Origin: an uncultured Nitrososphaeraceae archaeon
GTDB lineage: Archaea; Thermoproteota; Nitrososphaeria; Nitrososphaerales; Nitrososphaeraceae
Reading direction: 5' to 3'
Assembly (NCBI GenBank): GCA_963825865.1
Contig: CAWGVG010000003.1
Location: forward strand, 160,001-224,000
Length of the DNA stretch: 64,000 bases
Shown: one piece after another, positions 23,411 to 64,000 of the stretch
Numbering within the stretch: the stretch's first letter is position 1
How the letters are laid out: each line of letters starts with the position of its first letter
Translations under genes and position numbers: made by a program
Notes under the pieces: generated by a model
What the model was told of the DNA's origin: nothing
The model's input: only the letters and a program-made list of their open reading frames with translations
Databases searched by the model: none

Positions 23411-23615
23411 TTCTTTAAAGTTAACCTCTTTAATATTTATCTCTTCGACCCTTGTGTTGAGGCTCTGATAAAGGAAGATAAAAAGCACTTTATATATATA
23501 TATCTCATGACAATTTGTGTAATATTATTAAGCTAAAAATTAATTCTCATGCAATGCATGACACTGTATTCCACGTACTAAAATATCACTAAATATTATT
23601 TACTAGAGTATTACC

Positions 23616-24835: not shown

Positions 24836-25319
24836 ATGAAACGAAAATTTTCAAAAATATTAGTGGCTATGGATGGCTCGGAATCATCTAAGGATGCAGC
24901 ACGATATGCTACTATGATGGCAAAGAAAAATAATTCAGAGTTAATTGCTATTCACATTTTAACTCCCGATGGTTATGCATACTTGTTTGATATACCACCA
25001 TCTGATGCTGGGTCATTAGAAGAGCTCATGAACATATCTAGGCATGTAGTTATGAATTGGATAGATGAAATCAAAGAAGAAGAAGAACAAACTAACAATG
25101 ATGGTAACAAAAATATGGACAAAATACAATTGAAAACAGAAGTAATCCGGGCAACTAAACCTATAGTAGGTGAGATAGTAGATTATGCTGAACGTGAAAA
25201 CATAGATTTTATCGTTATTAGGTACTAGAGGAAGAACAGGTCTTAAAAAGATGCTGCTTGGAAGTGTTGCTTCAGGAGTCGTTACCTATGCAACATGTCC
25301 TGTATTGGTAGTAAAGTGA
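24836..25319 (+). CDS. Universal stress protein (frameshift near the 3' end)
   Basis: KILVAMDGS ... GRTGLKKMLLGSVASGVVTYATCPVLVVK. Confidence 0.88.
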
Positions 25320-25622
25320 ATTGGATAACGGCTTAATGGTTGTTGTTTCTTCGCGTCTAATGATAACAAATGAATCAAGGCGAGATTTTCATATATAGTA
25401 TTCCAATATCTTTTCAATATTGTCCTTTTCCTATGAACTTGTGCCTCTAAATGTTTATTGTTGAAATATTAAAGAGGTTATAAAGAATTTTTTACAAAAA
25501 GACAAAAGTTATATCGATAGTAATATTACTAACAATATATTATCCATTTACAATCACTCTCTCTAAAATTAAGTAAAATTGTACTATTTGCAAGAAGTTA
25601 TCCTATACCAGTTTTTGCAGTT

Positions 25623-33385: not shown

Positions 33386-33993
33386 AGGACTGCGGTATTG
33401 TTCCTGGTCAGGTGTAATGTTTGATGGTCTTGCCCATGGGTTGTCATTTGTTGCAACCAACTTGCTTTTTCAAGGAATTTTCTTCAAAAAGGTTAGGTAT
33501 AAGGGTAGTATATATGGGTAAATAGTAGGATTATACTGAAAGCCAGAATGTTGACTTGATTAAAATGGCACTAGGGTACATCAGGACTGAAAAAGATGTT
33601 ACTTGGAAGTGGTATATCAGGTGCTGTAATGTTGTATTGTATGAGCATTGTCCAGTCATTGACACAGAATAACTTAAAAGATAATTATTTAATTACTATG
33701 AACAAATCGATTTTGAATATTCTATATTCAACACAGCAGAAGATATCCAATATCAGAGTTTGCCGTTTCAGGAATCTGAGTGCAATTTTTCATTGCATCT
33801 TGCTACAATCTTACTGTTGGAGATTGGATTTAGCTGATTGCATTATTTATTGGAAGAATTCCTGTTGTTATAGTGGACAAAACAGGCATAATCACATATG
33901 CAACTCCTGTTGTAGAGGGATCATATCATCATCATCAACAATAGTGAATGAATTTATTGAAAGACTTCTTACTCTTTATTCTCTTTTCACTAC

Positions 33994-38062: not shown

Positions 38063-38294
38063 TGAGTTTTATGTTTGTTTTTTGGTTATTAATAGAATTG
38101 CAGTTATGCCTTCTTTTATTAGGTAGGAATCTTAATTTCGACGGTACGAAAGTTAGGATGACATTATAATATAATCATAACCTTGTAAATGTAATAACAC
38201 TCTCTATTCTCCTTTAATCTACCTATAATTTTATTCTTTTGTAAAATATCTTCTTTACCAACTCAGCTGTAATAATATATACCAGTTAGTAGTT

Positions 38295-40649: not shown

Positions 40650-41023
40650 TTAGGCTGGTGTAACGTGGTATCGTGTATCCTTGCCTAAGCCAAACCTTTG
40701 AATTTTAAGTACGTTATGTCCTTCGCTAAGGTATGAATCGATCTCTTCCGAAGTTCTCTTTCCTACAGTAATGTACTTTTCTTCTTGATTGGTGTTGCGC
40801 CATTATTAGGTTCTGTTACTGTGTATTGGTATCTCTGAGTCTTTTTGCCATTAAATTCCGCTTCTACCTGTTCTATGTTCTCTGGATTAAATTGTAGAAC
40901 CTTTTTTTCTCCTGGCTGTAATTTTATAAACTTGCTGTCCTTCTGTCTGAGTTCTGCATTCCTTTGCAAATTCTGTTTAGCTTTTGGACTCAATCTTTCT
41001 GCTGCTGCCAAATTAAATCTCAC
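40650..41023 (-). CDS. Putative phage/MGE single-stranded DNA-binding (OB-fold) protein, frameshifted
   Basis: [20 protein letters not shown]..(frameshift)..[16 protein letters not shown]; GGAGGTGA SD-like motif; overlaps the PolB stop. Confidence 0.5.
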
Positions 41024-42600
41024 CTCCTGTCTGCAAATTTGCTTTACCCGACCACGCCACTTGGAGGCTTTGCTGTGTGGTCATATTTATACAAATTAAA
41101 TCTTGTTCTATTGTTGCGATATCATGACCTGCAATTTCTAGAATGTCTTTGACTGCTTTCCATAACATTATTTTGTATTTTTTGACACTGATGTCTTGCA
41201 GATTAAGAGAATATCCTTCTTTATTGTTGTCAGATTCAAAATACTCTATGACATCTCCTTTCCTTGCACCAATCGCTAACCCTATCTTGCGCTTACGATC
41301 GTTTTCATTTTCGTATTCTTCAGGATTTTTGGATAATCTATTAGATCTCTTTAGTAATTCTGGACTTACATTATGAAGTTCTAAATCAGAGATTGCTTTT
41401 TTCAGATTAGCAATAGCGTCCGCATTATTAACAATGTCATATACTGTCTGTCTGAATACAACATTAATCCATCTAGGTCGATCATTCTTGTCTCCTTCCA
41501 TACCAACTATGTCTGGTTCTTTTCCTTGTATGCCAGTCCAACCAACGTAATGCTTTTTCTTATCAGAAATTATTGCTGTTGTGTAGGTCTTGGCATGTTC
41601 TACTTCTATACCTAACTGGTTATAGCATTCTTCTTGAAATCTTGAAATAATATTACTGCTACATGTGGTTCCAGTCGTATCATAGACTGTGTTGTAAAGG
41701 AATAAAGAATCAGTGTCACCATAGACAATTTCAAATCCCATACCTTTGGCAATTTCTTGCATTTTTGAAAGTGTGTATCTACCGTATGTGGTAATTAGCT
41801 CTGCAACCCTCGGATCATAATACTTGAAATATTGACTTCCAAAGACACCATATCCACCATTGATCAGAATCTTTAATGCTAGCTGTTTTACTTGATTTCC
41901 TAGTTTCTTTTGCTTAAGTCTCTCTTCTTTGAACACCTTTAATTTGTTTGGAAATGCACCTTCTTTTTGTCTGCATGTCCAGTATTCCTTTTGAATTTTG
42001 CAATCCTTTATAATATCTTCATTTATTCTACATTGAGAATCATCTTTACAACATTCACAATTTACTGTATCAAATGATATATTGTAAAGTATTGCCATTG
42101 AAGGGTACAAACTGGCAACGTCTACAACAATCAGATCATGGTAAAGTCCCTTTGGTTGAAGAACAAATCCCCCAGCATATTGTTGTAGTTCAGATTTTTC
42201 CACATTTCTGTCATATAATGAAACTGCTGGTGTTTGACATTCTCCATTAGATATCATACTATCAAAAATAGCTGCCCATCATGTTGATATGCCAGTTCTA
42301 CATACTCTTTCAAAATCTAAACCAGTTAGTTCTGATGTGGCTTTCATAGCATTAAGGACTTCACCATTATTATGTTTTGAAAGCTGCATTACCAGCTCAG
42401 CATCTCTTAAAACATATTTTTTCTGCTCTTCAATTGGAAGGGTTTGAATGTCTTTTCCTGTTAGTCCTTTGTATTTTCTAGCTACTCCTACTCCTCCAAG
42501 ACCATCTCCTAATACAGCCTTAGATACATCATCTAGTTTTAGAGTTCGATAAGCATTCTTGAAAATTGTAGTCTGTACCATTGGTTTGCCAAATACAGTC
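41013..42600 (-). CDS. Family B DNA polymerase (MGE-type), 5' truncated, frameshift ~42270
   Basis: DVASLYPS, KILINGGYG, YGDTDS, KKHY; exonuclease motif III YVLRDAEL in the upstream piece. Confidence 0.88.
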
Positions 42601-42850
42601 CCTTTGCCGTATTCAGTAAGATAACCTCTAGTATTTACCATGGAGATACCATATTTATCGGCATATTCAGTAAGTACTTCAGGAACACCTTCCTTCTCTA
42701 TAAACACAATATCTGTTCCCTTCTCTGCAAGTTCATCTATTGCATCAAAACTAACACTAGTCCAAGTACCATCAAAATACACTCAGCCCTTACCCCTGCA
42801 ATTATACCTATGTCTTCACGTTTTCTCCCAGCAGCTTTACAGATTTTACT
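42600..42850 (-). pseudogene. Toprim (TopoVI-A/Spo11-like) domain fragment fused in frame to the PolB remnant
   Basis: REDIGIIAG..YFDG..DIVFIEKEGV..YGISMVNTRGYLTEY. Confidence 0.5.
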
Positions 42851-42852
42851 AA

Positions 42853-43986
42853 TTAACTGCTTGAAGAAGATTTGATATTATCACTGTTAATCCTTGATTG
42901 TTCTATAACGTCTTCCATTTGATTTTGAAGTCTATTCTCGTTGCTAATCGTCAAAAATTCTATAGCCTTCAAATAATCTTCCAAAAGCTCGTTCTCGGTT
43001 GCTCTGTAATAGGAGCCAGAAATACCTATGGAGTGGCCCATCAGTTTCTCAATGTTTATTGGCTTCATCCCAGAGATTTCGCAACGAGTCTTGAACCACT
43101 TACGGAAACCATGATCAGCCTGAAACTCATGTCTCCTCTTACCATCCTCAAGCTTTTTTCTAAGCCCTTGAATCCAAAGTGCATCTTCCATCAACCTCTT
43201 TACACCTGATGATTTTAGCTTCTTTGGTGAATCAATAAAACCACGTTTGAATCCTTGTTTGGTATTCCACATATTCCTTAGAACCCAACTATTTCCATCA
43301 ATTGCCTCTCCAGACTCTCTGCGATAGTTCATCCATTTTTCTAACTCATGATATGCTTCTGGAGTTATGAAACTAAAGTATTCTTCCTCATCTTCTGCAT
43401 ATACAATTATTTTAGCTGCTATGATTTTTCCATTCCTCTTGGCAGGGTGTATATCTTTCCATCTAAGGTAATCCCACGCACCAAGTCTAATGCCAGAAGA
43501 AGACATGGTGCAAACAATTGCTTTTATTCGCCTATCTGGATATTCAATTATTCTTTTTATATCTTCAATCGTTGGGGCTCTATCATAGGCATACTTTCTT
43601 CCCTTAGGTAATCCTCTTGTAATCTTCTTCCATGGTATGGATATATCATTCATTTCGCAGAACAACTTTATGGCCTTGACAAAATTATGAACAGTAGCTC
43701 CTGTGATCTCTTTTCTCTCTACTCTCTCTTTTTGTGCTTGCAGAAACCTCAGGATGCTATTCAGAAACCATTTACTGTTACTATTGCCATTTATTCTATC
43801 CATCTCTAATGCATTTCTGCACCTTTGTTGTATGTTCTCGCCTTCAAGGTTGATAAAGTCAAAGAATTTCGTTAGCCTATAGGTGTATTTTTGTTTGGTC
43901 ACTTGTGAATTTATCGCAAACATGAATATACCGTAAGGATCTGAATCTACGTTCAGGCATCCTCCTATTACATTTTGTTCTTGCAT
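42853..43986 (-). CDS. Tyrosine recombinase/integrase
   Basis: Catalytic set SSGIRLGA (R), HGFRK (HxxR), LMGHS (H), SYYR (Y). Confidence 0.9.
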   Translation of the reverse strand: MQEQNVIGGCLNVDSDPYGIFMFAINSQVTKQKYTYRLTKFFDFINLEGENIQQRCRNALEMDRINGNSNSKWFLNSILRFLQAQKERVERKEITGATVHNFVKAIKLFCEMNDISIPWKKITRGLPKGRKYAYDRAPTIEDIKRIIEYPDRRIKAIVCTMSSSGIRLGAWDYLRWKDIHPAKRNGKIIAAKIIVYAEDEEEYFSFITPEAYHELEKWMNYRRESGEAIDGNSWVLRNMWNTKQGFKRGFIDSPKKLKSSGVKRLMEDALWIQGLRKKLEDGKRRHEFQADHGFRKWFKTRCEISGMKPINIEKLMGHSIGISGSYYRATENELLEDYLKAIEFLTISNENRLQNQMEDVIEQSRINSDNIKSSSSS

Positions 43987-44361: not shown

Positions 44362-46055
44362 ATGTTAGTTTATTTTGGGCCTCTCAGCGATGTCCTAGTT
44401 AGAACTATCCAAGGGTCTAACCCGAGGTTTACGATAGGAGTCTTTGGTGACTGGGGTACTGGAAAAACAACATTGATGAGGCTTATTCAGAAACAACTTC
44501 AGGAAAAAAATGATGAAACAAAAATGGTAACCGTATGGTTCAATGCCTGGAGATACGAACGAGAAGAGCAATTTGCAGTTATACCTCTTCTCAAGACTAT
44601 TGCATACGCTATTCCTGATAATGTAGGAGAATTAAAGGGCCTCAAACAAAAAATCAAGAGGGCTGGGATGAATGTTTTAAAAGGACTTCCAGACGTTATC
44701 CCTTCGCTTGTTAAGCAATATTTCGGTGAAGTGGGAGAAAAGGTTACAGAGGATGCGGTCAATAAATTTAAAGCAGAATTCATCCCAAAATTCGAACTTC
44801 TAACAGAAGTAGATAGAGAGACAATCTATTATGATGGTTTAGAACTGATTAGCAATGAGTTATCTAAAATTAGGACCAAACCCGGGTACAGAAACGTTTA
44901 GGATTGTAATATTCATTGATGACCTAGATAGATGCTCTCCTAAAAGAGCATTAGAGGTATTTGAGTCTGTAAAAGTCTTTCTAGATGTGGAGGGTTTTAT
45001 TTTCGTTATGGGTCTTAGTCTTACCACTATGGCCAAATTAGTTGAAAAGGAGTACGAGGGTACGGATATCAAAGGGCGAGATTATATACGTAAAATTATC
45101 CAAACTCCTATTTTTCTGCCAGCATGGAAAGTCGGTGATACTATCAGCGTTATTAAGGATCTGATTGATGGAAATCGATTGGGTGGAGCATATGCGAATT
45201 TTATTGCTGAAAGAAAAGATATTCTAGCAACCATTATTGAACCCAATCCAAGAGAAATAAAGCGGTTTATTAATGACTTTCTGATAACGTCTGAATTGTC
45301 TGAATTATCTGAACCTAAATTAGATAAGGAAGCACTTATCCTTATTCGAGCACTTCAATTCAGATGGGATGTTTTTTATGAAAAGTTTATGTCTGATGGG
45401 AATTTCAGGTCGGCTATAATTGCCGTTTCTTCTCTACATGTGAATTTAGAGTATTTGAACAATTACTTGAACGAAGAGGACTTTGGACGGAGAGGGATGA
45501 TGATGAGTATAATGTTATATCCAACAAGGAGAACCTTGAATATCGGGCAAACGGAAGAGGAACTAAAAGAGAAGATGGAGGCAAACCGGCGAGATATCGA
45601 ATCCGCTAAGAGAATGTGGAAGGACCAGGAGAAGTCAAGGAAGGAAAAAGAGCGTGACATACAGTACATACCATTAGGTAGCGCGAAAACGCTAGATGAA
45701 GTAAGAGAGGAGAGAAATGAAGCAAGAGATCAGACGGAGAAATTTCTGAGAGATGACAGCGAACGCATAAAGAAATTGGAAGAAGAGTACGGTGAAATGC
45801 AACGGAGGGCCTCAGAAGAAGAAAGTGCTCTCAGAATCGAATACGGAGAGTTGGAATAGTATTAGTACGGCGCTGAAAGACAATATAGATATACTCGACG
45901 CGTATAAAGCCGAGGTTAATGAGATAGAGTCTCGGTTATGGGAAGTTTTAGTCCAGAGTAGCAAAAACTTTTCTACGATAACGAATTGGGATGATTACAG
46001 ACGTGTAATGGGGATAGCCAGTCATAAAAAGATAGATGTGATTACTCAAAAATGA
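44362..46055 (+). CDS. KAP-family P-loop NTPase with a coiled-coil C-terminus (frameshifts)
   Basis: GDWGTGKT, WFNAWRYE, IFIDDLDRC, YIRKIIQ, NPREIKRFIN. Confidence 0.88.
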
Positions 46056-46273
46056 GGCTGACTAGGCTACTACTCTTTTAATATTCGCGCTCACTCATCT
46101 CGTCTCATCTTATCGATAATATAGAGCATTCTTATGAGTCATTTAATTATTTATTTTTTCTAATTAATGCTAAATATTAAACCTCCTGGATACTGCTGTA
46201 GGATTTCCTATTATACCCTCAGCGTGCGGATTACCAGTTTCAGTGCTACCTTTGATTATTTATTAGAGAAAGT

Positions 46274-47790
46274 TTGCTCAAAAACTATGTAATTTATGAA
46301 GTTGATAATAACAAGAAAATCAAGAAATTGGCAAAGCATCAACAGTACAGAGTAGTTACAAAAGCAGTTGAAAGACTAAATCTAGAAGAGGAAGAAAATA
46401 TTGCAGACAAAGGTGGCGTAATATGGCATACACAAGGATCAGGTAAATCGCTTTCTATGCTCTGGCTTGCAACTCAATTAATGTATAGGTTTGGAAATCC
46501 ACCCATTGTAATAGTTACTGATAGAACACAATTAGACGAACAAATCCATGGAACTTTCAAGGCTTGTGGATTTCCAGATCCTATACCAGCTAGAAGTAGG
46601 AAGCATCTTCAATCCTTGCTTAGCAATCCCAGAGGCAAAACTATAATGACTACTATTCAGAAATTTGGCTCTAAAGAAAACCACATTCATACAGATGAGA
46701 AAGTTATTGCTCTTGTAGATGAAGCGCACAGAACACAGTACAAATTCAATGCAGAAGCCATGAGATCAGCCATGCCAAATGCAGTATTCTTTGCATTTAG
46801 TGGAACTCCAATAGACAAGAAAAACAAAAGCACCTACAACGTTTTTGGCCCTCTGCTTGATAAATATTCCTTTGAAGAATCAAAAAATGATGGTGCCACA
46901 TTAAAGATTATGTATGAAGACAGGATGCCAGATCTTTATGTGGAAGGAGCAGATAGCATAGACCATATCTTTGAACGTGTTTTTTCAGACCTTGATCAAG
47001 ATACTAAACACAGACTCAAAAAAGAGTATGTGACAAAAGAGAAAATATCAGAAGCCCCTGCAAGAATCAGAAAGATTTGCCTTGATTTAGTAAATCATTA
47101 TAGCTTCACATATTCAACCCAATGGGTACAAGGCAATGGTAGTTGCAACTTCAAGGGAAGCTGCTGTTACTTACAAAAGGGAATTGGACAAGCTCAATGC
47201 ACCCAGATCCAAGATTATTATGACATCCCATCTGGGTGAAAAAGGTAAAGATGGAAGCAGCTGGGATGAATATTACCTTACTTCTGAGCAACGTGAAGAG
47301 GAAGCTGATAGGTTCAAAGATCCAAATGATGCAACTAAAATTCTAATAGTAGTTGATATGCTTCTTGTAGGCTATGATGTTCCAATAGTCCAGGTCATGT
47401 ATTTAGATAAAGGGTTAAGGGAGCATACTTTACTTCAAGCAATAGCCAGAGTAAACAGATTATATGATGTACGAAAAACATATGGATTGATAGTTGATTA
47501 TTGTGGAATAACAAAAGATCTACAAAAAGCACTTGCCATATTTGAAGAAGAAGATATCAAAGGAGCGTTAGAGCCAGCAGAGAAAGAGCTGGAAGAGTTG
47601 AAGAACAGACACCAAGAAGTAATGTCATTTTTCACAGATATTGACAAAGAAATGATGATGCAATAATTGAAAAGTTTGAACCTGTAAACGTCAGAGATGA
47701 CTTTGAATATGCATTTAAGATGTTTTCAAAAGCACTAGATATTATCCTTCCAAGAAAGGAAGCAGATCCATATATTCCCTGTATAAGAAA
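46274..47790 (+). pseudogene. hsdR: Type I restriction enzyme R subunit, helicase part only
   Basis: HQQY, IWHTQGSGKS, TTIQKF, DEAHR, FSGTP, IVVDMLLVGYD, LLQAIARVNR; nuclease N-terminus and C-terminus absent. Confidence 0.9.
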
Positions 47791-51445: not shown

Positions 51446-52523
51446 GTGCAACGCAGCGAAATAACAGGTAAGGAAGCTGAACTATATATTAAACTTCCAA
51501 ATGGCAGGATGAAATGTACCTGCCTGCGCTAGGCTATGTGAAATTCCAGAAGGCAAAACAGGATTGTGCGGTATTAGAGGAGTCACAAATAACAAATTAT
51601 ATTTATACGTATATGGTAGAGTTATTGCAGGTCATATAGACCCGATAGAGAAAAAGCCTGTGACACATTACAGACCAGGTACAGCGATTTATTCTATAGC
51701 CACAACAGGATGCAATTGGCTATGTAAATATTGTCAGAATTATGATATTTCTCAAAGGCGTAAAGTAGAAGGTGTTGAAATGACTCCTGCAAGAAGTCAT
51801 TCAGAATGCTGAACGTTATGGTACGCATGGTATTGCCTATACGTATAATGAACCTTCTATCTTCATTGAATTTGCAGAAGATTGTGGAATTGAGGCCCAT
51901 AAAAAAGGTATTTTTAACATTTTTGTTTCAAATGGCTACGACACTCCTGAATCTGTCAATATGATGAGCAAATTCTTGGATTGCATAACAGTAGACTTCA
52001 AGGGAAGTGGCAAGCAGGAGTTTGTAAGACAGTACATAGGAATTCCAAGTGCTGAACCAATTTTCCAGACTTTAAAAGCAATTAAGGACAAGACAAAGAT
52101 TCACACCGAAATTACAGATCTTATTGTTCCCCAGGTTGGTGATGACTTAGGAAGCTGCCAAGAAGATTGTGTAGATTTATTTATAATGAACTTGGACCTG
52201 ATACTCCAATTCACTTTTTGAGGTTCCATCCAGATTACAAAATGATGGAGTTTGGTATGACGCCAGTTGAAACATTGGAGAAGCATCATGCTATTGCAAA
52301 AGAGGAAGGTTTGAAGTATGCATATCTAGGAAATGTTCCAGGTCATCCATTAGAACACACTTACTGTCCTGAATGCAAAAGCATTGCTATAGAACGTCAT
52401 GGATATAACATAGGTTCATGGAATCTTGATAATAATAACTGTTGTAAAAAATGTGGTTATCCTCTTCCTATAATAGGAAAGCTAAATAGAAGCAGAAAGA
52501 ATTTGTTTCAAATCATTCAGTAA
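51446..52523 (+). CDS. amrS: AmmeMemoRadiSam radical SAM enzyme (PFL-activase-like), frameshifted
   Basis: [53 protein letters not shown]. Confidence 0.9.
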
Positions 52524-54629: not shown

Positions 54630-57600
54630 TCATAATTCTCTTGCTTCTATAAAGGTAAAGTCTCCTCTCTCTTCATCTGAGTATATCTCAAAACCTTGCT
54701 CTTTTACTATTTGATGAAGATTATACAATCTTCCTTTGATTAAAGACTTTGTTGTTTCTGCAATCATCAAGATGCCATTAGTTACAAGACATCTCTTTGC
54801 TTCTGCGATATACTCCTGCCAATTCTTACCCATTAGCGATAGTGAAAAGATTGCAACATCTAATGCTTCATCAGCTAACGGTACTTTTTTCATATCACAT
54901 GCTACGACTTTATCATTTATAGCAACATGGTCAAAGCTATGACACTCTTTGTGATCCGATTGCCTCCATGATTTTTGCTTCTCCCAGCCAAAGTCTCCAA
55001 TATGCAGTCTCGGGGATAGCCGTTTTATTCTTTTGATAATTTCTTCATATGGAATAACACTCCAAGTCTTGCGTGCTTCTCTATACTGTCTGTGATATTC
55101 TTCCCACTCTTTTGGGTCTTCCAGCATTCTTTCATGGGTGGTTTCAGAATTTTCATTATTAATTTGGTTGTTTAATCCTGTAAAGTCACCGTATTTTCTT
55201 ATTCTTTGTTCTATCTCAACAGGTGTTAATTTTACCTCAAGATCTCTTCTATTAATACTTGATATTTCTCCTCTCTCTAATCTTTCCAACCATTTTGCTG
55301 CTTCCATCATAGCTTGCTGTGGAGTTACCATGTTCTTATTGGGTAGTCGACCATCTACTGCACAGTCTGCCAATGTACGTTTGTATTGAATTCTTTTCCA
55401 TTTGTTATCATCATATTTTAATCCATTGATATTTGCTTTGATGATGTAAACATTTACATAGTCCATCTCACTGCCTTTTCTAACCAATCTACCAACAAGT
55501 CTGCTGATATTGTGCATTAGTCCATGGAAGAGTATTTATGATTAAATTATTGCAGATGTGCTGCAGCCCATCTACACCAGTGGATATAGGGCGGGAAGCA
55601 ATCAATACTTGGACTTTTTTATCCAAAAATCTTTTTAATCCTGAGTGATCTTCACCCGTATATTTTGCATAAGTGTACCCAGCATCTTCTACTGCTTTTG
55701 ATAATTTTTCAACTATGTCTGTAACATATTCTGTGTAAATTATAGTCGTACCTTGTATATGTTTTATTATTTCAGGTATTTTCGCATCTGATGCTAACCG
55801 TTCAACTGTGAGTGGATTTCTTATTAATTCCTTTGCGCTAATATTACTTTTTCTTATATCTATTTCGACGTCTATATGTTCTGTGTATACGCTAATAGGA
55901 TATGGCGGTATTTCTCTGATTGATATCAAAGATAATTTTTCATATAATTTGACAGCATTTTGTGGAGTTGGTCTGGTTGATATATCATCATATATTTTAC
56001 CTGTTATCAACTGTAGCAAAGATTTACCCTCTTCTAATTCATTTATTACTGGTGTCGCTGATAGTCCAAGGACATTTACATAGCTGTTTTTCTTACTAAC
56101 ATCAGTCATCAATCCTTCAATGTTATGTCGTCTTTTACTTTCTTCCTTTTCATTTCTTTTCTTTGTGAAATGTATTTCATCCAGTACAACAAAGTCGATT
56201 TTTTGTTTCACCAGATTTAAGATAAGATTTGGGGAATATGGCTGACTGAATAGATCATAGTTTAAGACCAGATATTTGTGTTTATTTTTATCATATTTCT
56301 CATAGAACGCTTCATTTCTTGTTATAACGACGGAATCATGAAATATCTCCAGGATATTATTTTCCCATTGGTCTACTACATCATTTGGACATATTATGAG
56401 AGTCATTTTACTGTCAATCACACGACTTGCCAGCACAGCTGAAAGTGTTTTTCCTGCTCCAGTTCCAGAGAAATTACCGAAACGCCTATTTGTTTTGATT
56501 TTATATGCTACATATCGCTGCATCAGTGTTGGTGATAGAATCTCCTTATCTTTATCTCTGAATGTATAGCCTTTTGGAATTTCAATACTCTGTGCTCCTT
56601 CATAATCTGAAAGAAATGTTTCCAATATTATGTCATGATATTTGTTACCATCTTTGCCTTCACGCCTTACATCTGAAATAGTATTTTCTTTATCTCTAAA
56701 TGCACTTGCCCATAAATCCTTTATTGATTTATTAACATAAAACTGCATGGACTCTATATCTTCAGTATATGATTCTAACCTATCAGATTGGGCAAAGATT
56801 TGCTGTGGTGTCTTGATTTTACCATAATCTAGTGGATCTGTTTCCTTTCCTACCAAATCAGCAATCTCTTGAGAAGATGCAGTTCCTATTTCTTCCTCTT
56901 CTGATAAATCTGGTGGAATTTCTAAATCAGAATTTACATATTCCTCTATAGTCTTACGCCCTTCAGCTGTACGTCTTGCCTCAATCAAGTTTTTGAAGAA
57001 TTGTGTGTGACGGCTCTGTAGATTCAACAGTCCCTTTGTACTTAATAAGTGGTATAGAACAATTTCATCTTCCTCATAAAGCATTCCACTTTCAATCCAA
57101 TCCTTTAACAATTCCTTTACTCTTCTTATTGACCAATCTGTTTCTTCATATCCAAGAAAATCATACCAACCTTTCCATACTTCTTCATATATTATATTAG
57201 CATTTGTTGGTATATAATCAGGCTTTTCTCCAGATCTGCACCACTTTCTCCATTCCTGCCAACTTTTCAATCCAAGTGAATGAACAAATTTTTTAGCTTC
57301 TAGAAATGACCAGTATTTTCTATCCTGTGTAGCTATAGTGCCTGTACCAAGCCAATCTCCCCAACCTTTCCATTCTTTTTTATATACTCGATTAGGACTG
57401 TATGGTATATAATCAGGCTTTTCTCCAGATCTGGACCACTTATTGTATTCTTTCGTATTCTTAAAGCCAAGTGAATGAACAAATTTTTTAGCTTCTAGAA
57501 ATGACCAGTATTTTCTATCCTGTGTAGCTATAGTGCCTGTACCAAACCAATCTCCCCAACTTATCCATTCTTTCTTGTAAGTTCTTTCTGGATGAGGTGG

Positions 57601-58095
57601 TATACCTTCAGGAAGATCTTTTTCCTTAACATATTTGCGCCATTCTTTATTATTTTTTATTCCCGATGAACGAGCAAATTCTCTTGCTTCCTCAAAAGGC
57701 AGTGGTTTAAAATCTTGCTTCCATACTGTCCCAGTACCAAGAAAATTCCCCCAGCTTATCCATCCTTTATTTTTATATACTTTATGAGGAATACGTGGTA
57801 TACCTTCAGGAAGACCTTTCTCCTTAGCATATTTTTCCCACTCCCTAGAATTTTTTATTCCCGATGAACGAGCAAATTCTCTTGCTTGAGAAAAAGATAA
57901 CCATTCTTTACCAATCCAATTACGCCAGCTTATCCATCCTTTATTTCTATATACAGAATCAGGACGAGATGGTATACCTTCAGGAAGACCTTTCTCCTTA
58001 GCATATTTTTCCCATTCATCCTTACCTTCTAATTTGAGTGAATTAGCAAACGCTCTTGCTTCTTCAAATTTCCTCCAAATTGTGTGAAATATCAT
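54630..58095 (-). CDS. Multidomain protein: five Trp-rich repeats + SF2 helicase + Rrp8-like SAM methyltransferase (frameshift ~55500)
   Basis: Repeats at ~57150-58080; SGTGAGKT, VLDEIH, LSATP, ISTGVDG, GRLVRKG; EDPKEWEEYH, IGDFG[CGEA], HSFD, CDMKKVPL, FSLSLMG, LMIAE. Confidence 0.85.
57150..58080 (-). repeat. Five tandem ~175-200-bp coding repeats (integrase-repeat-like units)
   Basis: For example, a 79-bp identical block at 57272-57350 and 57467-57545; consensus F.EA..F..S.G.K...EW..Y...(KP/LP)..IP..P...Y...W..W..(W/F)LG. Confidence 0.9.
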
Positions 58096-59275: not shown

Positions 59276-60166
59276 AAAACATAAAGTTGATGATGCTGTT
59301 ACTGTAGATAAGAATCACACCAATGACATTCAAAGATGAGTCATCACCTGACCTGCTGGAGCAGATATCATCTTTAGGACTCCCAGATCAAAGCATACAG
59401 TACTAGTAGTATTATCAGGCTCAGTGCTCTGTAGAGTAACACCCCTTCCAGCGTTATCTGTCGGTGCATTATGGTCTATCAGAGCAAAACCAGGTGGATA
59501 ACTTGAGTGAACGGAGCTCTCATATACGCACCTATGCTTAGATTCCGTTGAAGAACCTATGAACAATGTTGGCTTGCTCATCCGTTTTTGCTTTCTCGTG
59601 CCTTTTTTTGATAGATGCATATATTTTAGAATATCGATCTTCTCAATAATTTTCAAGACTGGTCAGAATGACAGCCAGGTAGGATGATAATTCCTGTTAC
59701 CAATAAGTAACAATTTTTTTCTAACGTGACTTAGAGTAAAGTTCTGGAGTTTGTTAAATCCCTGTCTAAACAAGAAATGATAGATTTTGATGGGGCGGCA
59801 CCGTGCTCATGAGGCTCGTCTTGAGCTGCTCGATCTGTTCGAGCGCGCAAGCGTGTTTATCAAGCACACTTTGACAAGAAATTGCCGTAACAAGCTTCTG
59901 CATCTGATTGACTGCTTCTGATTGTTAGTCCGCTATTAGCACGCAGTTCAGCAAATTCAGAATCGCTGATCATGAGAGACCTAATCATCTGTGCCGTCCA
60001 TATGACGTTAGTGGTTTGTCTTGGCTTGGACGTCCGATTATAAGCGGAGTATAAGTCCTCTTTTCATAGTGCCGTCGAGAGTTAGTTAAGGATATTGCTT
60101 GCTAGAAAAAGAAAACATAAAGTGGATGATGCTGTTACTGTAGATAAGAAACATAGTAATGACATT
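59276..60166. repeat. 55-bp imperfect direct repeat (59276-59330 and 60112-60166)
   Basis: AAAACATAAAGT(T/G)GATGATGCTGTTACTGTAGATAAGAA...AATGACATT, 50/55 identical. Confidence 0.85.
59520..59581 (-). pseudogene. TIR-like (Cap12/Pycsar-type) domain N-terminal stub
   Basis: MSKPTLFIGSSTES. Confidence 0.45.
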
Positions 60167-60771
60167 TAAGGATCTGAGGAAGATGATAATAAGCAGCAGC
60201 CAACAAACACTTACAATCGCTAATAATGATCTACCATCAGTATAGTGGAGATATGAAAAGCTCAAAAGAGAAGAAGCATCTTTACAAGCTGGTAATCATA
60301 ATTCAGCCAGAACCTTTCAGGAATTAAGTGATCTGATATCAACTACACGCAACACATTGGAGCAATATGAGTCAGATTGTGAAGAAAAGAGACTCGAGAT
60401 AACCAAGCTGCGGATACAAATGATTCGAGCAGAGGCCCGCATACGAGATAACACTCCGCGTTAAAGGTAGAAAATCAGGCAGAGACATCCCTAGGCCAGT
60501 CTGGTTTGTGCATGAAGGCAACACGTAATTAAGCTAACAGTTTTTTATTTCGTGTCTATCCGATGTACTGAATCAATTATTCTTTAGAGAGATAGATGAT
60601 GGATATTTATCGTTGTAAAAAACCCTTCCTTTTTCTAAAGAAGAATGCAATAATAGAAGTTCTGATAAAAGACGCTATCCCTTTTTTGCAATAGACACCG
60701 TTCATTCATCTGCTCTTGGAGTATTAGGAGATACATCGGATTTACTTGCTACTCCTACAGTATCTTGTTGA

Positions 60772-60993
60772 TCACTGCTGCCTACTCTTTCGATTTATAG
60801 TGGAAGACGATGAATCTTTCTCTTGCTCTGTCTTTTTGTCTTGTCCTTGAGTTTTTGCAATACAGTCATTGCATGTCCATACACCTTTGATATAACTACC
60901 TGCCTTTATCTTCCCATGTTGTTCTATTTCATCTTCTAGCGAATCGGTAACAGGCGAGCCACATTTGATACATTGCGGTAGTAAGTTTACCAT
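60772..60993 (-). CDS. Small zinc-finger protein
   Basis: CIKCG ... WTCNDC. Confidence 0.6.
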   Translation of the reverse strand: MVNLLPQCIKCGSPVTDSLEDEIEQHGKIKAGSYIKGVWTCNDCIAKTQGQDKKTEQEKDSSSSTINRKSRQQ

Positions 60994-61755
60994 TATATCA
61001 AAGATATCTATCTATTTCTAATTTATTAGTTAATATATGATATCCAATGATACTCAAAAATCTGTTTCTGGACATCTACCAAACTTATCTTTTTAGATGT
61101 TATCATATATACCCGATCGTTTCAATCTTGAATGTATTACCATTATATCATGAAAGCATGCTCTATATAGATATGTGCAGGTGGTTGGATGGTATGATAG
61201 TTGGTTAGAAGAAGCAAAGTATTTTCGTTGGTTAAATGAATGGTTAGGATACAAGGAATTTGAATAACGGGAAAAGTGGGTAGTAGTAGTTATGTTAGTA
61301 ACCGATTTGTATTAAACTGATTTATTAGATATCTTCAATAACAAAATAAATGCTAATGAGGACTAACTCCTTTGCTTGTTGTCTTACAACAGATAGATCT
61401 CTTTACTGCGCAAAATATCTACAATTTTAGCATTTTGGCAAGTAGATGTATTCTCTTACGTTTATTCCTTAGCCAAAGATAACTCTTATATCTTTTAATT
61501 TCGTTAGTTTGGACAATATTTTCAATTTTTACGTATTAGAAAAATATTATTATATAATATTATATAAATTAGTTCAGAATTTACAATTTGGTTTAACAAT
61601 TTGCAATAGTACTTTTTTTTATTAGGGGAACTTAAGATAAAGTAGAGCTGTGGAAAATATAAGTACAGAGCAGCAGCATCTGAGAACAACATCATCATCA
61701 CAAGACTAACTTAAGAGAAAAATCTGAAGAGAAAAAAGAACAACAACAACTCTGG

Positions 61756-62001
61756 TTGAAAACCATTTCTATTCACAGTTATTCACAGCTATCAGAATTG
61801 CAAGACCATTTTTGCGATAATAAAGAACCTGCTATTCTAATCGCAAGAATCACACCAATAGTGACAAAAAATATTGAAGAAGGAATGAAGTTAGTAAATG
61901 AAGTTTATTCGATGGCTACAAAAAAAAATTATTCTGTTTTTCGCTTAGGAGAAGAAAGAATTATTCTAGTTCCATCTACCGTAAGAATAAAGTCCTTGTA
62001 A
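61756..62001 (+). CDS. SepF-like (DUF552) protein
   Basis: ILIARITP..KLVNEVY..FRLGEERIILVPSTVRI. Confidence 0.6.
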   Translation: MKTISIHSYSQLSELQDHFCDNKEPAILIARITPIVTKNIEEGMKLVNEVYSMATKKNYSVFRLGEERIILVPSTVRIKSL

Positions 62002-62159
62002 TAATAATAATAATAGGACGACGAAGACAATAAAATTGTATGGCTGCATTTGCATATCTGTAAATCTCTTGCTTTTAGTTTTTCTAAAAACTATTAGAAA
62101 TCATGAATCAGTCAGCTTAGCTTTATACATTTTTAATCTATATTCCTAAGAGTAGCTTT

Positions 62160-62549
62160 AGGGTATCTTGAGTGCCATCTCCGACCCCTTTTCTTTAGCA
62201 AATTTCACAAAAGCTTTTTCGAACCTTTTGGCGATGCTCTTCACTTGTTCATCAAGTCCTGCTCTGTAGTTTTAATCCACTCAATAAGATCAAGTAAAGC
62301 TGTCATGAAAGGATAAATTGGCTATAGTGATTCACCGATCAAGACTTCATCCTTGCCATAAAAACCTACCAAGAAGTCCTTATCTTTATTGATCAGTTTT
62401 TGATAGATCTTGTTCAATAATGCAGACTTGCCAATTCCAGATTCTCCTATAACATATGTAATGCTACTTTGGCTACTATTCATCCTATTCCAAAGCTCGT
62501 CAAGCTCTTTTTCTCTTCCGAATAATTCTCGTTCTGATTTAATAGCCAA
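62160..62549 (-). pseudogene. AAA/STAND-type ATPase N-terminal fragment
   Basis: LFGREKELDEL..VIGESGIGKSAL; stops shortly afterwards. Confidence 0.65.
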
Positions 62550-62754
62550 TAATCGATACCAAGATAGGTATGATTAAAAGTTTTTTATTTGAATGTCCAT
62601 TTCGTATCTGGAAAACGATCATCGTCAACACAACAGCTACCAACAATCCAATGATTATCACCAACAATATTAAACCACTGGAAGTGGCGTGCATGAATAA
62701 TCTTCACCTAACTAAAGACCAATGCGATCAGACAATTGTGGATGGTGGCTCGAT

Positions 62755-63205
62755 TTATTGATTGACCTCTCTAGATTCAATTTTCTCTAATCTCTCTTCT
62801 AATGACTTTACTGCTAGAACAATTGGCCCTTCAGATAAAAGCTTAAACTTGGACTCATTGGATTCTATAATTACCTTTAGTGCCAAGAGTTTCTCCTTTA
62901 TTGGGAGTTTATTGTCATTATATATTTTCCATGATTCTCTATTAGCTTGATCAATATCTTCTATGCATTGTTTGTAATAGTAAGCAAGATCTGATTTTGC
63001 TAGATCGTAGACAAATTGTTGGCTTTTAGCTTTTAGAGCTTTGATGTCTCTACAGATAGTACTCTACATGAACATCAAGGCGAATGGCAATTTCAGTTTC
63101 AGTCATTGACTGAGCTAATAGTCTTGCAACTGTTCTTCTGCGATCTTCAATCAGGAATTTAGAATTGCTGTATTTGTTTTGCAAGGTCACGCTGATTTTT
63201 TGCAT
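62755..63205 (-). CDS. HTH protein (MGE-associated, terminase-small-subunit-like), frameshift ~63065
   Basis: IEDRRRTVARLLAQSMTETEIAIRL..STICRDIKAL..KLLALKVI..LLSEGP. Confidence 0.6.
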
Positions 63206-64000
63206 TTCTCCTCGCTTGTTTTAATAAGGTCTTGCAATCCCACGCTTAGAATATATCTCGAAACCAAGCTTTATGTATTTTCAATGCTCATTGCATTTCA
63301 AATTGTTCATAGTCCTTATTGGTTCAATTTCTTTTTCTTTCTTATCGCATCAACTATTGCTTGAACTTCTTTACCAATTAATTTGCTAAACGATGCTAAG
63401 TTTCTTTTGCTTCAACATTTGTCTGTTTTACGTAATCGACTTCTTCTTTTACTAGGTAATTGGGGATTGAATCTATGTAAATTCTAGTTCTTTGATGTGA
63501 AGAATATATTTGATTATATGGATCATCTTAATACAATATCTCTTTGTGTCTCTGAAGGTCAAAATGCTCGTATGTGATCATATGAGCGAGTCACACTCTA
63601 TAAACAATTATACTGCAGATGTGCACTAAAAAAATATCAAATTTTTTATTAATCATGGTAAAATATTGGATTGTTATTATCCAGGGAATCTAAATACCGA
63701 AGCAACAACTCTAAAGAAGTATTTTAAGTCTATATCAGTAAAGATAAATAGTAAAAGAAAAATTGTCTCCATTTAAATCAATTGTAAATAAGGAGAAATA
63801 ACTTATAACCACAGTAATGGAGTAGATAATCAATCAAAGATGCAGGAATCAAATATAGAATTGAATGGATCTGTTAACTAATTTCAGTATTTTTTGTTTA
63901 AATTATTAGGAAAGTCCATGACTAGATCTACATTTATACGACAAATTGTGTTTTTGAAAGTAATAATGTTTCTAGAATTTACCTTGAAAGTGTAAACCTA

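What the first reader, a model, noticed from the sequence alone, without database searches (positions are those of the whole stretch)
54630..58095. Repeat array + SF2 helicase + Rrp8-like m1A methyltransferase in one polypeptide: candidate undescribed defence or modification system
Seen in the sequence: joining the two ORFs across a 1-bp shift at ~55500 (AQYQQ/LVGRLVRKG restores helicase motif VI) gives a ~1150-aa protein. It has five N-terminal Trp-rich repeats, a complete SF2 helicase (GTGAGKT, DEIH, SATP, STGVDG, GRLVR) and a C-terminal MTase. Established knowledge: the motif order F..LN....S......EDP..W.EYH...W...P....I.DFGCGEA..HSFD....CD...VPL....D...F.LSLMG.N.....EA.R.L...G.L.IAE matches eukaryotic Rrp8/nucleomethylin (Methyltransf_8, the 25S/28S rRNA m1A methylase). 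It does not match N6/N4 (NPPY/DPPY) or C5 (PC) DNA MTases, so this is not a standard type I/III/IIG RM enzyme, and no nuclease domain is visible. Inference: the gene sits among defence remnants (HsdR, KAP NTPase, TIR and STAND stubs). It may recognise a nucleic-acid target through the repeats, translocate, and install base-pair-blocking m1A on foreign DNA/RNA or host rRNA.
Basis: partly seen in the sequence, partly recalled or inferred. Interest (0 to 1): 0.88.

Follow-up and report, generated by a model that had tools for sequence, protein, structure and literature searches.

The report
Archaeal Snf2 motor–Rrp8-like methyltransferase fusion
This is one copy of a large, unstudied gene family of ammonia-oxidising archaea that joins a DNA-tracking motor to a methyltransferase otherwise known from eukaryotic ribosome making, and its apparent breaks are probably sequencing errors.

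Summary
The two ORFs (55489-58095 and 54630-55517, minus strand) are real and read through as one ~1154-aa protein. It has five INT_rpt repeats, a helical domain, a Swi2/Snf2-type ATPase and an Rrp8/nucleomethylin-type methyltransferase (Pfam PF05148 E=7e-38; an intact homologue matches PDB 2ZFU at TM 0.82). It needs three 1-nt frame corrections, not one: the SAM motif I is also out of frame. These breaks (0.87/kb) are no denser than breaks in essential genes of the same assembly (rpoB, rpoA', secY, thermosome). They are therefore most likely assembly noise, and neither "pseudogene" nor "two genes" can be concluded. The same caution applies to the neighbouring "defence stubs".

The fusion is not unique. 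There are 910 homologues, 100 of the 120 best listed carry the methyltransferase, and every named source is an ammonia-oxidising archaeon. Distribution is patchy (2 of 301 genomes sampled across the phylum). The gene often lies near tyrosine integrases or protein-primed PolB. In marine lineages a small NTP-pyrophosphohydrolase-like gene follows it. It is absent from PADLOC and NCBIfam defence models and from the literature I could search.

Closest known kind: the methylase-Snf2 dyad of mobile elements (P1 DarB). Verdict: a new variant of a known kind. The function is inferred, not shown.

The parts
57121..58095 (-). N-terminal array of five ~65-aa INT_rpt (PF14882-type) repeats, residues 1 to about 325 of ORF1
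   Evidence: Repeats are readable in the translation. DNA direct repeats D1 and D2 lie at 57152-58017. Pfam INT_rpt scores 20.6 bits on this ORF, below the 26.5 cut-off. Homologues carry PF14882.
56506..57120 (-). Conserved all-helical domain between the repeats and the motor, with no Pfam family
   Evidence: Conserved columns in alignment A2. It is helical in the AF2 model of homologue P0011, residues about 335-530.
55501..56505 (-). Swi2/Snf2-like ATPase, motifs I to the first half of VI (GTGAGKT, DEIH, SATP, STGVDG, ...QYQQ)
   Evidence: Pfam ResIII 9.5e-10, SNF2-rel_dom 3.7e-8, DEAD 1.3e-7, Helicase_C 2e-4. The Foldseek top PDB hits of homologue P0011 are Snf2 remodellers, Mot1 and RapA.
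55499..55502 (-). Frame break 1: one extra base at about 55500, inside helicase motif VI
   Evidence: Sequence. The tblastn frame switches from -2 to -3 at 55501/55502.
55194..55499 (-). Second half of motif VI (LVGRLVRKG) and the helical bridge to the methyltransferase
   Evidence: ORF2 residues 7-108 align to P0011 residues 881-985. This stretch is helical in the model.
54630..55193 (-). Rrp8/nucleomethylin-like SAM methyltransferase domain (PF05148)
   Evidence: Pfam PF05148 E=7e-38 on ORF2 residues 109-287. Homologue P0011 matches 2zfu_A at E=1.1e-27 by sequence and at TM 0.81-0.82, rmsd 2.1 A by fold.
54942..54986 (-). Out-of-frame patch over SAM motif I: frame breaks 2 (about 54985, one base missing) and 3 (about 54942, one base extra)
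   Evidence: Translations in two frames, compared with the invariant DFGCGEAKIMEAIG..RV of homologues.
42853..43986 (-). Context: tyrosine integrase of the same family as integrases found beside homologues of this gene
   Evidence: Pfam Phage_integrase. It is 29% identical, E=4e-48, over the full length to the integrase of L025.
41013..42782 (-). Context: family-B DNA polymerase in two ORFs beside the integrase
   Evidence: Pfam DNA_pol_B 5.8e-36. NCBIfam archaeal PolB hit on 42279-42782.
44362..47666 (+). Context: KAP-family NTPase (two ORFs) and HsdR-type SWI2/SNF2 motor (two ORFs)
   Evidence: Pfam.

Best explanation
The locus holds one gene of a family restricted to ammonia-oxidising archaea. 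The protein has, in order, an N-terminal array of INT_rpt repeats, a helical domain, a Swi2/Snf2-type ATPase and a C-terminal Rrp8/nucleomethylin-type SAM methyltransferase.

The three 1-nt frame breaks in this copy are most likely errors of a noisy assembly (my estimate about 0.7). The organism therefore probably makes the full ~1154-aa enzyme.

The gene is an accessory gene carried in integrase- or PolB-bearing integrated elements and variable islands (about 0.8).

Inferred mechanism:
- The repeats dock the enzyme on DNA. In bacteria and tailed phages the same repeat is fused to nucleases, helicases and integrases.
- The Snf2 motor tracks along duplex DNA without unwinding it.
- The methyltransferase marks bases as it goes, at a ring nitrogen such as N1 of adenine if the Rrp8 chemistry is kept.

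Most likely role (about 0.35-0.4): protective or epigenetic marking of the element's or host's DNA. That would make it the archaeal counterpart of the methylase-Snf2 dyad of phages and plasmids (P1 DarB).

Shown: the architecture, the family membership of each domain, the distribution, the neighbours, and the assembly noise. Inferred: DNA as substrate, the methylated atom, and the biological role.
For: Architecture:
- Pfam on the two ORFs.
- 100 of the 120 best listed homologues carry PF05148 together with the helicase families, and most are 1000-1350 aa.
- The AF2 model of intact homologue P0011 has pLDDT 80.7.
- Its ATPase matches Snf2 remodellers best (INO80 8atf_G TMt 0.66, ISW1 0.64, also Mot1, RapA, Sulfolobus 1z63). 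Its C-terminus matches nucleomethylin 2zfu at TMt 0.81-0.82, rmsd 2.1 A, 32-34% identity. The sequence match to 2zfu_A is E=1.1e-27.

Breaks as assembly noise:
- rpoB domain 6 lies in 3 frames, rpoA' domain 2 in 4 pieces over about 500 nt, and secY in 2.
- Only 1 of about 6 thermosome loci is unbroken, and class-I tRNA synthetases are split.
- Only 49% of the genome lies in stop-to-stop frames of at least 150 aa.
- This is roughly 1.4 breaks/kb in these essential genes, against 0.87/kb here.
- The copy keeps 95 of 99 invariant family columns, and 2 of the 4 losses lie in the shifted patch.

Accessory and mobile:
- At E<=1e-10, 2 of 301 genomes sampled across the phylum have a match (one is the window's own).
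- Strong PF05148 hits occur in 4 of 301 genomes of the class, all inside 301-1384-aa frames.
- Of 41 homologue loci with at least 3 kb of flank, 12 hold a tyrosine integrase or protein-primed PolB.
- The window's integrase belongs to the same family.

DNA targeting:
- Atlas leads show INT_rpt fused to Helicase_C/ResIII, GIY-YIG, DUF559 and Integrase_2 proteins.

Known kind:
- The methylase-Snf2 dyad and DarB are described in PMC5512222 (passages read).
Against: - No read or independent contig covers any of the three break sites, so real frameshifts are not excluded.
- Frameshifted homologues exist in other assemblies, at scattered positions.
- A second, much more broken copy lies in the same genome (C61).
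- The copy keeps only 218 of 248 near-invariant columns, which is the low end of the controls at 88-98%.
- The methyltransferase family is known only for rRNA m1A. N1-methyladenine in duplex DNA would be a lesion, not an ordinary mark, which sits badly with a protective role.
- The domain order (motor, then methyltransferase) and the methyltransferase class both differ from DarB-type dyads.
- The gene was not found in viral collections.
- Most loci are short contigs, the 94 loci were not de-duplicated, and 29 of the 41 loci with flank show no integrase or PolB.
- The INT_rpt model has no PDB fold match, so DNA binding by the repeats rests on automatic cluster labels.
Confidence: 0.55

Rival explanations
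1. True pseudogene. The three indels are real, both the motor (motif VI split) and the methyltransferase (motif I destroyed) are dead, and the locus is a relic inside a decaying integrated element.
For: There are three breaks in 3.5 kb, two of them in catalytic motifs. The indels are not in long homopolymers. The same genome has another, heavily broken copy plus fragments. Frameshifted or truncated homologues on long contigs break at different sites, for example P0005, P0050, P0053, P0040 and P0080. The close relative P0003 (92% identical) also ends right after QYQQ. Near-invariant residues are retained at the low end of the controls.
Against: Essential genes in the same assembly are broken at equal or higher density. 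95 of 99 invariant columns are kept, and only two losses lie outside the shifted patch. There is no premature stop apart from those caused by the shifts.
Confidence: 0.28
2. Host defence system. The enzyme recognises invading DNA, or RNA, and disables it by base-pair-blocking methylation. Alternatively it is the modification-and-motor half of a restriction system whose nuclease is encoded separately.
For: Distribution is patchy. There is weak partial similarity of the motor to DISARM DrmD, PbeA, BrxH and DpdE. A DpnII/MboI-fold nuclease gene lies 150-204 nt upstream and divergent in 4 of 94 loci. STAND-TPR NTPases occur in 4 of 94 loci. KAP NTPase and HsdR lie in the window. The gene is intact in a complete genome where the neighbouring integrase is only a 116-aa fragment.
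Against: There is no nuclease domain in the protein and no nuclease partner in 90 of 94 loci. No self/non-self mechanism is evident. The PADLOC and NCBIfam matches cover only about 60-150 residues and score far below their cut-offs. Linkage to integrases and PolB fits element cargo equally well.
Confidence: 0.22
3. Housekeeping or regulatory RNA enzyme: an Rrp8-like rRNA m1A methyltransferase whose fused motor remodels pre-ribosomal or nascent RNA (RapA-like).
For: Characterised PF05148 members methylate large-subunit rRNA (recalled knowledge, no call). The methyltransferase pocket residues are highly conserved with human nucleomethylin. RapA and Mot1 are among the fold hits.
Against: The gene was found in only 2 of 301 genomes sampled across the phylum and in 8 of 24 of its own family, mostly as fragments. 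Copy number and repeat number vary. It is linked to integrases and PolB. Snf2 motors track dsDNA (PMC5512222, passages). INT_rpt partners are DNA enzymes.
Confidence: 0.08
4. Two separate, functional genes: a helicase and a stand-alone methyltransferase working in trans.
For: Two ORFs are called, and the second has an ATG at 55517. Many database entries are methyltransferase-only or helicase-only proteins.
Against: The split falls inside motif VI, and the residues upstream of LVGRLVRKG in ORF2 have no counterpart in homologues. Motif I is out of frame in ORF2. The short database entries start or end at scattered points, or at contig ends. 100 of the 120 best homologues are fused.
Confidence: 0.03

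Closest known systems
DNA methylase-SWI2/SNF2 helicase dyad of phages, plasmids and conjugative elements (archetype phage P1 DarB; Iyer et al. 2017, PMC5512222, passages read)
   Same: A methyltransferase and a Snf2-type ATPase sit in one polypeptide. The gene is carried by mobile elements. The proposed mode is translocation along dsDNA coupled to methylation, and no nuclease is present.
   Different: The methyltransferase here is Rrp8/nucleomethylin-type (PF05148), not an N6-adenine DNA methylase. The order is motor then methyltransferase, not the reverse. An INT_rpt array sits at the N-terminus. The host range is ammonia-oxidising archaea. The gene was not found in virus collections.
Eukaryotic Rrp8 / nucleomethylin (PDB 2ZFU; Pfam PF05148)
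   Same: Same fold and SAM motifs: E=1.1e-27 and 32-34% identity, TM 0.82, rmsd 2.1 A.
   Different: Rrp8 is a stand-alone nucleolar protein acting on rRNA (recalled). Here the domain is the C-terminus of a 1000-1800-aa motor protein, with a patchy, element-linked distribution.
Type ISP, type III and type I restriction-modification enzymes; DISARM (DrmD + DrmMI); BREX
   Same: An SF2 or Snf2-like motor is coupled to a methyltransferase. There are weak partial hits to DrmD, BrxH and DpdE.
   Different: There is no nuclease, no target-recognition domain of the RM type and no amino-methyltransferase family hit. Matches cover only about 60-150 residues and fall far below the curated cut-offs, for example 30 bits against 610-950 for DrmD.
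INT_rpt-helicase proteins of bacteria and tailed phages (uncharacterised Atlas clusters)
   Same: An N-terminal INT_rpt array is followed by ResIII/Helicase_C.
   Different: Those clusters (418-802 aa) list no methyltransferase family. They are known to me only as automatic cluster labels.
Eukaryotic DNMT5 (Snf2 ATPase fused to a C5 DNA methyltransferase; recalled, no call)
   Same: An ATP-dependent methyltransferase built from an Snf2 motor plus a methyltransferase in one chain.
   Different: The methyltransferase class differs, it is eukaryotic, and it has a chromatin-maintenance role. No homology was tested here.

Membership tests
Pfam PF05148 Methyltransf_8 (Rrp8/nucleomethylin) | HMM score above the curated gathering cut-off | tested here: met
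   131.1 bits against 27, E=7e-38, on ORF2 residues 109-287.
Pfam PF05148 Methyltransf_8 (Rrp8/nucleomethylin) | Intact SAM-binding motif I (DFGCGE/D) | tested here: inconclusive
   It is invariant in 72 of 72 aligned homologues. In the window it can be read only across two 1-nt shifts, which may be assembly errors.
Pfam PF05148 Methyltransf_8 (Rrp8/nucleomethylin) | Fold of the solved member (2ZFU) | tested here: met
   Tested on homologue P0011: TMt 0.81-0.82, rmsd 2.1 A, 32-34% identity.
Pfam PF05148 Methyltransf_8 (Rrp8/nucleomethylin) | N1-adenine methylation of large-subunit rRNA | not testable with these tools
   This needs biochemistry or nucleoside mass spectrometry.
Swi2/Snf2 ATPases | SF2 motifs I-VI with Snf2-type motif VI (Q..R..R.GQ...V.VY) and a SNF2 family HMM hit | tested here: met
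   SNF2-rel_dom scores 33.3 bits against 24.9. The motifs are readable. The pattern for motif VI is recalled.
Swi2/Snf2 ATPases | Two-lobe fold closest to solved Snf2 enzymes | tested here: met
   Among the listed top-50 PDB hits most are Snf2 remodellers, Mot1, RapA, CSB/Rad26 and Sulfolobus 1z63. The rest are 2zfu (matching the methyltransferase), RecQ-type helicases, TFIIH and a poxvirus transcription complex.
Swi2/Snf2 ATPases | dsDNA-stimulated ATPase and translocation | not testable with these tools
   No assay was possible.
Pfam PF14882 INT_rpt | HMM score above the cut-off | tested here: inconclusive
   The window ORF scores 20.6 bits, below 26.5. A repeat-only homologue from L024 scores 48 bits. 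PF14882 is precomputed on most full-length homologues.
DarB-like methylase-Snf2 dyad (PMC5512222) | N6-adenine DNA methylase domain N-terminal to the Snf2 module | tested here: not met
   The methyltransferase is PF05148 and is C-terminal. So this works like the dyad at most and is not a member.
DarB-like methylase-Snf2 dyad (PMC5512222) | Carried by phages, plasmids or conjugative elements | tested here: inconclusive
   An integrase or protein-primed PolB lies beside 12 of 41 loci with at least 3 kb of flank. None was found in viral collections.
Restriction-modification types I, III and ISP | Nuclease domain or subunit, and an amino-methyltransferase | tested here: not met
   There is no nuclease and no N6/N4 methyltransferase family in the Pfam lists. 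A nuclease neighbour occurs in only 4 of 94 loci.
Catalogued defence systems (PADLOC 2.0, NCBIfam r20: DISARM DrmD, BREX BrxH, Dpd, PbeA) | Full-length match above the model cut-off | tested here: not met
   The best match is PbeA at 1.4e-11, on the window ORF only. DrmD scores 30 bits against cut-offs of 610-950, covering about 60 residues.
Pseudogene | Frame breaks in excess of the assembly's background | tested here: not met
   0.87 breaks/kb here, against roughly 1.4/kb in rpoB, rpoA', secY and thermosome genes.

The most novel reading that the evidence does not exclude
Ammonia-oxidising archaea and their integrated elements use an ATP-driven, DNA-tracking enzyme that writes a ring-nitrogen methyl mark (for example N1-methyladenine) on duplex DNA. 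That chemistry is otherwise regarded only as damage. The mark would serve either as a self-mark or as a replication-blocking weapon. The small NTP-pyrophosphohydrolase partner would clean methylated nucleotides out of the pool. The family would also be the prokaryotic relative, either source or recipient, of eukaryotic Rrp8/nucleomethylin.
Probability: 0.2. Interest if true: 0.82.

Novelty: new variant of a known kind. Interest (0 to 1): 0.55.

Why it matters
Ammonia-oxidising archaea drive global nitrification, yet their mobile elements and conflict systems are barely explored and no genetic system exists for them. This family is large: 910 homologues at 90% clustering, and 185 clusters at 50% identity with E<=1e-30. 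It is specific to these archaea and it couples a chromatin-remodeller-type motor to a methyltransferase known only from eukaryotic ribosome biogenesis.

If it methylates DNA, it would add a new base-modification chemistry to prokaryotic epigenetics and conflict biology. It would also give an archaeal counterpart to the DarB-type dyad. If it acts on RNA, it would be a new motor-coupled RNA modifier. Either way it bears on the origin of Rrp8/nucleomethylin.

The practical lesson for the scan is that this assembly is riddled with indels. Any 'frameshift', 'stub' or 'remnant' read from it needs independent sequence.

Tried and rejected
- Reads. No public run holds half of the sampled words; the best share was 0.19. 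I laid contigs of X1, X2, X3 and the RNA run X10. They cover only 3-8 of 30 bins, and none covers the sites at about 55500, 54985 or 54942. This gives no evidence on the breaks, on habitat or on expression.
- Programmed frameshift or conserved split. Rejected. Truncated homologues end or start at scattered positions, with ends at reference residues 817-1128.
- Att sites or tRNA target for the element. There is no tRNA in the window and no convincing flanking direct repeat, so the borders are not defined.
- Viral origin. Nothing was found in IMG/VR. In the phage records only the repeats match, to jumbo-phage hypothetical proteins at 27-34% identity. BFVD gives only phage Snf2 helicases.
- Fold of the repeat. 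The AF2 model of a repeat-only protein is good (pLDDT 81.9), but no PDB match was found (best E=1.5). A HeH/SAP-like reading was my guess and remains untested.
- PF05148 family scan over the class. It mostly rings on generic class-I methyltransferases: 161 of 301 genomes, and 8 of 14 control genomes. Only the four hits with E<1e-30 are meaningful. The tallies 161/301 and 60/301 include the genomes flagged unpublished (G310, G168, G259). No claim here rests on those three.
- Literature. Searches found no description of this fusion. In PMC11502894 and PMC8078820 the only mention of PF14882 is in a list. In 10.1101/2021.11.30.470311 I read passages only, and found nothing on this family.


Full report
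WHAT IS IN THE SEQUENCE. On the minus strand, the ORF listing gives an 868-aa ORF (55489-58095) and a 295-aa ORF (54630-55517) that overlap by 29 nt. ORF1 starts with five ~65-aa Trp-rich repeats of the type F.EAR.F...L.LK...EW..Y.K.G..P..IP..P...Y...W..W..W.G. At DNA level these appear as direct repeats with a period of 174-198 nt between 57152 and 58017. After a helical stretch come the motifs GTGAGKT, DEIH, SATP and STGVDG.

Pfam scores ORF1 as ResIII (9.5e-10), SNF2-rel_dom (3.7e-8, above its cut-off), DEAD (1.3e-7), Helicase_C (2e-4) and INT_rpt (5.5e-4, below its cut-off). It scores ORF2 as PF05148 Methyltransf_8 at E=7e-38, 131 bits against a cut-off of 27.

tblastn with intact homologues runs in frame -2 down to 55501 and continues in frame -3 from 55502. 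The DNA reads ...CAG CAG A CTT GTT GGT AGA TTG GTT AGA.... One extra base at about 55500 therefore cuts helicase motif VI between QYQQ and LVGRLVRKG.

The SAM-binding motif I is not in frame. The ORF2 frame reads GDFGWEKQKSWRQSDHKECHSFD. Another frame reads LGEAKIMEAIGSQRV, which is what homologues have: DFGCGEAKIMEAIG..RV.SFD, with D-F-G-C-G invariant in 72 of 72 sequences. So one base is missing at about 54985 and one is extra at about 54942. The gene needs three corrections, and read through it is about 1154 aa.

ARE THE BREAKS REAL? At first I read them as pseudogenisation, since the neighbouring genes are also split: KAP NTPase, HsdR, PolB and a radical-SAM gene. The control overturned that.
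- In the same assembly (4.98 Mb, 62 contigs, 82% complete) only 49% of bases lie in stop-to-stop frames of at least 150 aa.
- Essential single-copy genes are broken in the same way. rpoB domain 6 lies in three frames within 1.1 kb. rpoA' domain 2 is in four pieces within about 500 nt. secY is in two.
- Only one of about six thermosome loci is unbroken, and class-I tRNA synthetases are split.
- That is roughly 1.4 breaks per kb, against 0.87 per kb in this gene.
- The copy still carries 95 of the 99 columns that are invariant across 72 homologues. Two of the four losses lie in the shifted patch. It keeps 218 of 248 near-invariant columns, which is the low end of ten intact controls at 88-98%.
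- Public runs do not cover the three sites.

I therefore put about 0.7 on assembly error and about 0.28 on true decay. The neighbouring 'stubs' need the same caution.

THE FAMILY.
- The helicase part finds 910 proteins at E<=1e-3 among 8000 candidates scored. Of the 120 best listed, 100 carry PF05148 together with the helicase families, and most are 1000-1350 aa with PF14882.
- The names given by sources are 'integrase repeat-containing protein' or 'DEAD/DEAH box helicase family protein', from Nitrosotenuis, Nitrosarchaeum, Nitrososphaeraceae and 'Thaumarchaeota'.
- All 12 loci from the species-genome collection are from Nitrososphaeria.
- Against 1.84 billion 50%-identity representatives, the 295-aa ORF finds 2445 proteins at E<=1e-3, 1341 at E<=1e-10 and 185 at E<=1e-30. 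Most of the best 150 are 800-1800 aa with the match at their C-terminus.
- Distribution is patchy. In the window's own taxonomic family, 8 of 24 genomes match, mostly as fragments, and 0 of 16 other families of the order match. In a sample of the class, 4 of 301 genomes have strong PF05148 hits, all in 301-1384-aa frames. In a sample of the phylum, 2 of 301 genomes match at E<=1e-10, the window's own genome included.
- The window's genome holds a second, much more broken copy (C61:11800-15680) and two fragments.

STRUCTURE. An AlphaFold2 model of the intact homologue P0011, built from 72 sequences, has mean pLDDT 80.7. Foldseek against the PDB puts Swi2/Snf2 ATPases on top: PBAF, Mot1, SMARCAD1, INO80 (TMt 0.62-0.66), ISW1 (0.64), Chd1, RapA, and the Sulfolobus SWI2/SNF2 core 1z63. 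Nucleomethylin 2ZFU matches the C-terminal domain at TMt 0.81-0.82, rmsd 2.1 A, 32-34% identity. The sequence search gives E=1.1e-27 to 2zfu_A and no PDB hit for the rest of the protein.

So the 'SF2 helicase' is an Snf2-type motor, a class that tracks along duplex DNA without unwinding it (PMC5512222, passages). A model of a repeat-only protein is confident (pLDDT 81.9) but has no PDB match. Atlas clusters, which are leads only, show the same repeat fused in bacteria and tailed phages to Helicase_C/ResIII proteins, GIY-YIG and DUF559 nucleases, and Integrase_2. Only the repeats match jumbo-phage proteins in the phage records.

NEIGHBOURS. I called ORFs in 94 homologue loci: L021-L030, L049-L128, L014, L034, L044 and L046. 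L031 and L032 were dropped as partial matches, and the loci were not de-duplicated (L028 and L085 are the same contig). Neighbours were clustered by BLASTP.
- No partner is universal.
- In marine (Nitrosopumilus-type) loci a ~103-aa gene follows 0-9 nt downstream in 20 loci. It has no Pfam or NCBIfam family. Its nearest Atlas clusters are labelled nucleoside-triphosphate / phosphoribosyl-ATP pyrophosphohydrolase, score 0.96.
- The marine loci L024, L027 and L028 that I read ORF by ORF also carry one to six separate repeat-only genes upstream. In L024 a 177-aa gene has its own N-terminal domain and a single repeat.
- In soil-type loci a FUN14 membrane gene (15 loci) and an MCM-like AAA gene (12 loci) lie downstream at 0.2-5.9 kb. 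That looks like a conserved chromosomal flank of a variable spot.
- Tyrosine integrases of two families occur in 6 and 5 loci. Protein-primed PolB (PF03175) occurs in 3. A DpnII/MboI-fold nuclease lies 150-204 nt upstream in 4. STAND-TPR NTPases occur in 4.
- Of the 41 loci with at least 3 kb of flank, 12 have an integrase or protein-primed PolB.
- The window's own integrase (42853-43986) is a full-length homologue of those (29% identity, E=4e-48), and it sits beside a split family-B polymerase.

COMPARISON WITH WHAT IS KNOWN. PADLOC 2.0 and NCBIfam r20 give only short, sub-threshold matches of the motor to DrmD, PbeA, BrxH and DpdE. Four literature searches found nothing on this architecture.

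The closest described kind is the 'DNA methylase-helicase dyad' of phages, plasmids and conjugative elements. In it an adenine methylase is fused or linked to a SWI2/SNF2 ATPase. Its archetype, P1 DarB, protects the incoming DNA in cis against type I restriction (PMC5512222, passages).

The present family shares the logic: motor plus methyltransferase, no nuclease, and links to mobile elements. It fails the membership test on three counts: the methyltransferase class, the domain order and the host range. It is not a type I, III or ISP enzyme, since it has no nuclease and no amino-methyltransferase.

HOW IT MOST LIKELY WORKS (INFERRED). The repeats dock the enzyme on DNA. The Snf2 motor moves it along the duplex. 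The Rrp8-like domain methylates bases, at N1 of adenine if the family's chemistry is kept.

My estimates for the role:
- About 0.35-0.4: protective or epigenetic marking of the element's or host's DNA (DarB-like).
- About 0.2: a host defence that damages invader DNA or works with a separate nuclease.
- About 0.08: an RNA/rRNA role.

The pyrophosphohydrolase-like partner could then be a pool-cleaning enzyme. That is a testable idea, not a finding.

VERDICT. The gene is one member of a large, unstudied, AOA-specific family, not a singular oddity. Its breaks, and the 'remnant' look of its neighbourhood, are best explained by a noisy assembly. Novelty: a new variant of a known kind. Interest: 0.55.

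Noticed in passing
G000:C44:2472-3597, 23333-23830, 25097-26220; also C8, C14, C21, C26, C58: Essential genes (secY, rpoA', rpoB, class-I tRNA synthetases, thermosome) are cut into 2-4 frames each. Only 49% of the genome lies in frames of at least 150 aa. The assembly appears to carry about one indel per kb, so every frameshift or pseudogene call from this genome is suspect.
   Followed up: yes
window 41013-43986: A tyrosine integrase (42853-43986) lies next to a family-B DNA polymerase that is split into two ORFs (42279-42782 and 41013-42257). This looks like the replication and integration module of an integrated element. The borders were not found: there is no tRNA and no flanking repeat.
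   Followed up: partly
window 51513-52523: A radical-SAM enzyme gene runs through three overlapping frames (51513-51812, 51784-52221, 52167-52523). The family name is my reading of the translation and was not scanned.
   Followed up: no
G000:C61:11800-15680 (L048); C2:39450-39668; C62:207393-207980: A second copy of the same repeat-Snf2-methyltransferase gene, 44-79% identical and with many stops, lies 2 kb from an IS481-like transposase (L048 9006-9881). Two further fragments lie elsewhere in the genome.
   Followed up: partly
L024:7704-17014; L027; L028; L070:4997-5308 and 19 other loci: The marine versions form a cluster: one to six tandem repeat-only genes (about 260-450 aa, each starting MKKFRDFESAR-like), then an 874-902-aa motor-methyltransferase, sometimes a 177-aa gene with one repeat, and then a ~103-aa NTP-pyrophosphohydrolase-like gene 0-9 nt downstream.
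   Followed up: partly
L023:867-1652, L056:480-1265, L064:6290-7075, L065:1097-1882: A 261-aa protein with a C-terminal DpnII/MboI restriction-endonuclease fold (PF18742, E=2.5e-43) lies divergently 150-204 nt upstream of the gene. No other methyltransferase is visible on these short contigs.
   Followed up: partly
window 33983-34050 and 38212-38279: A 68-nt stretch at the 3' end of the P-type ATPase gene (33994-36636) is repeated 4.2 kb away at 85% identity. It may be a relic of a second ATPase copy.
   Followed up: no
window 59276-59337 and 60112-60173: A 62-nt direct repeat (89% identical), spaced 836 nt apart, lies in a stretch with almost no long open frame (60001-64000 has no frame of at least 150 aa).
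   Followed up: no
L014:294-1094 and L025:11215-12015: A 266-aa protein with no Pfam, NCBIfam or PADLOC family lies convergently downstream of the gene in two Nitrososphaeraceae loci.
   Followed up: partly
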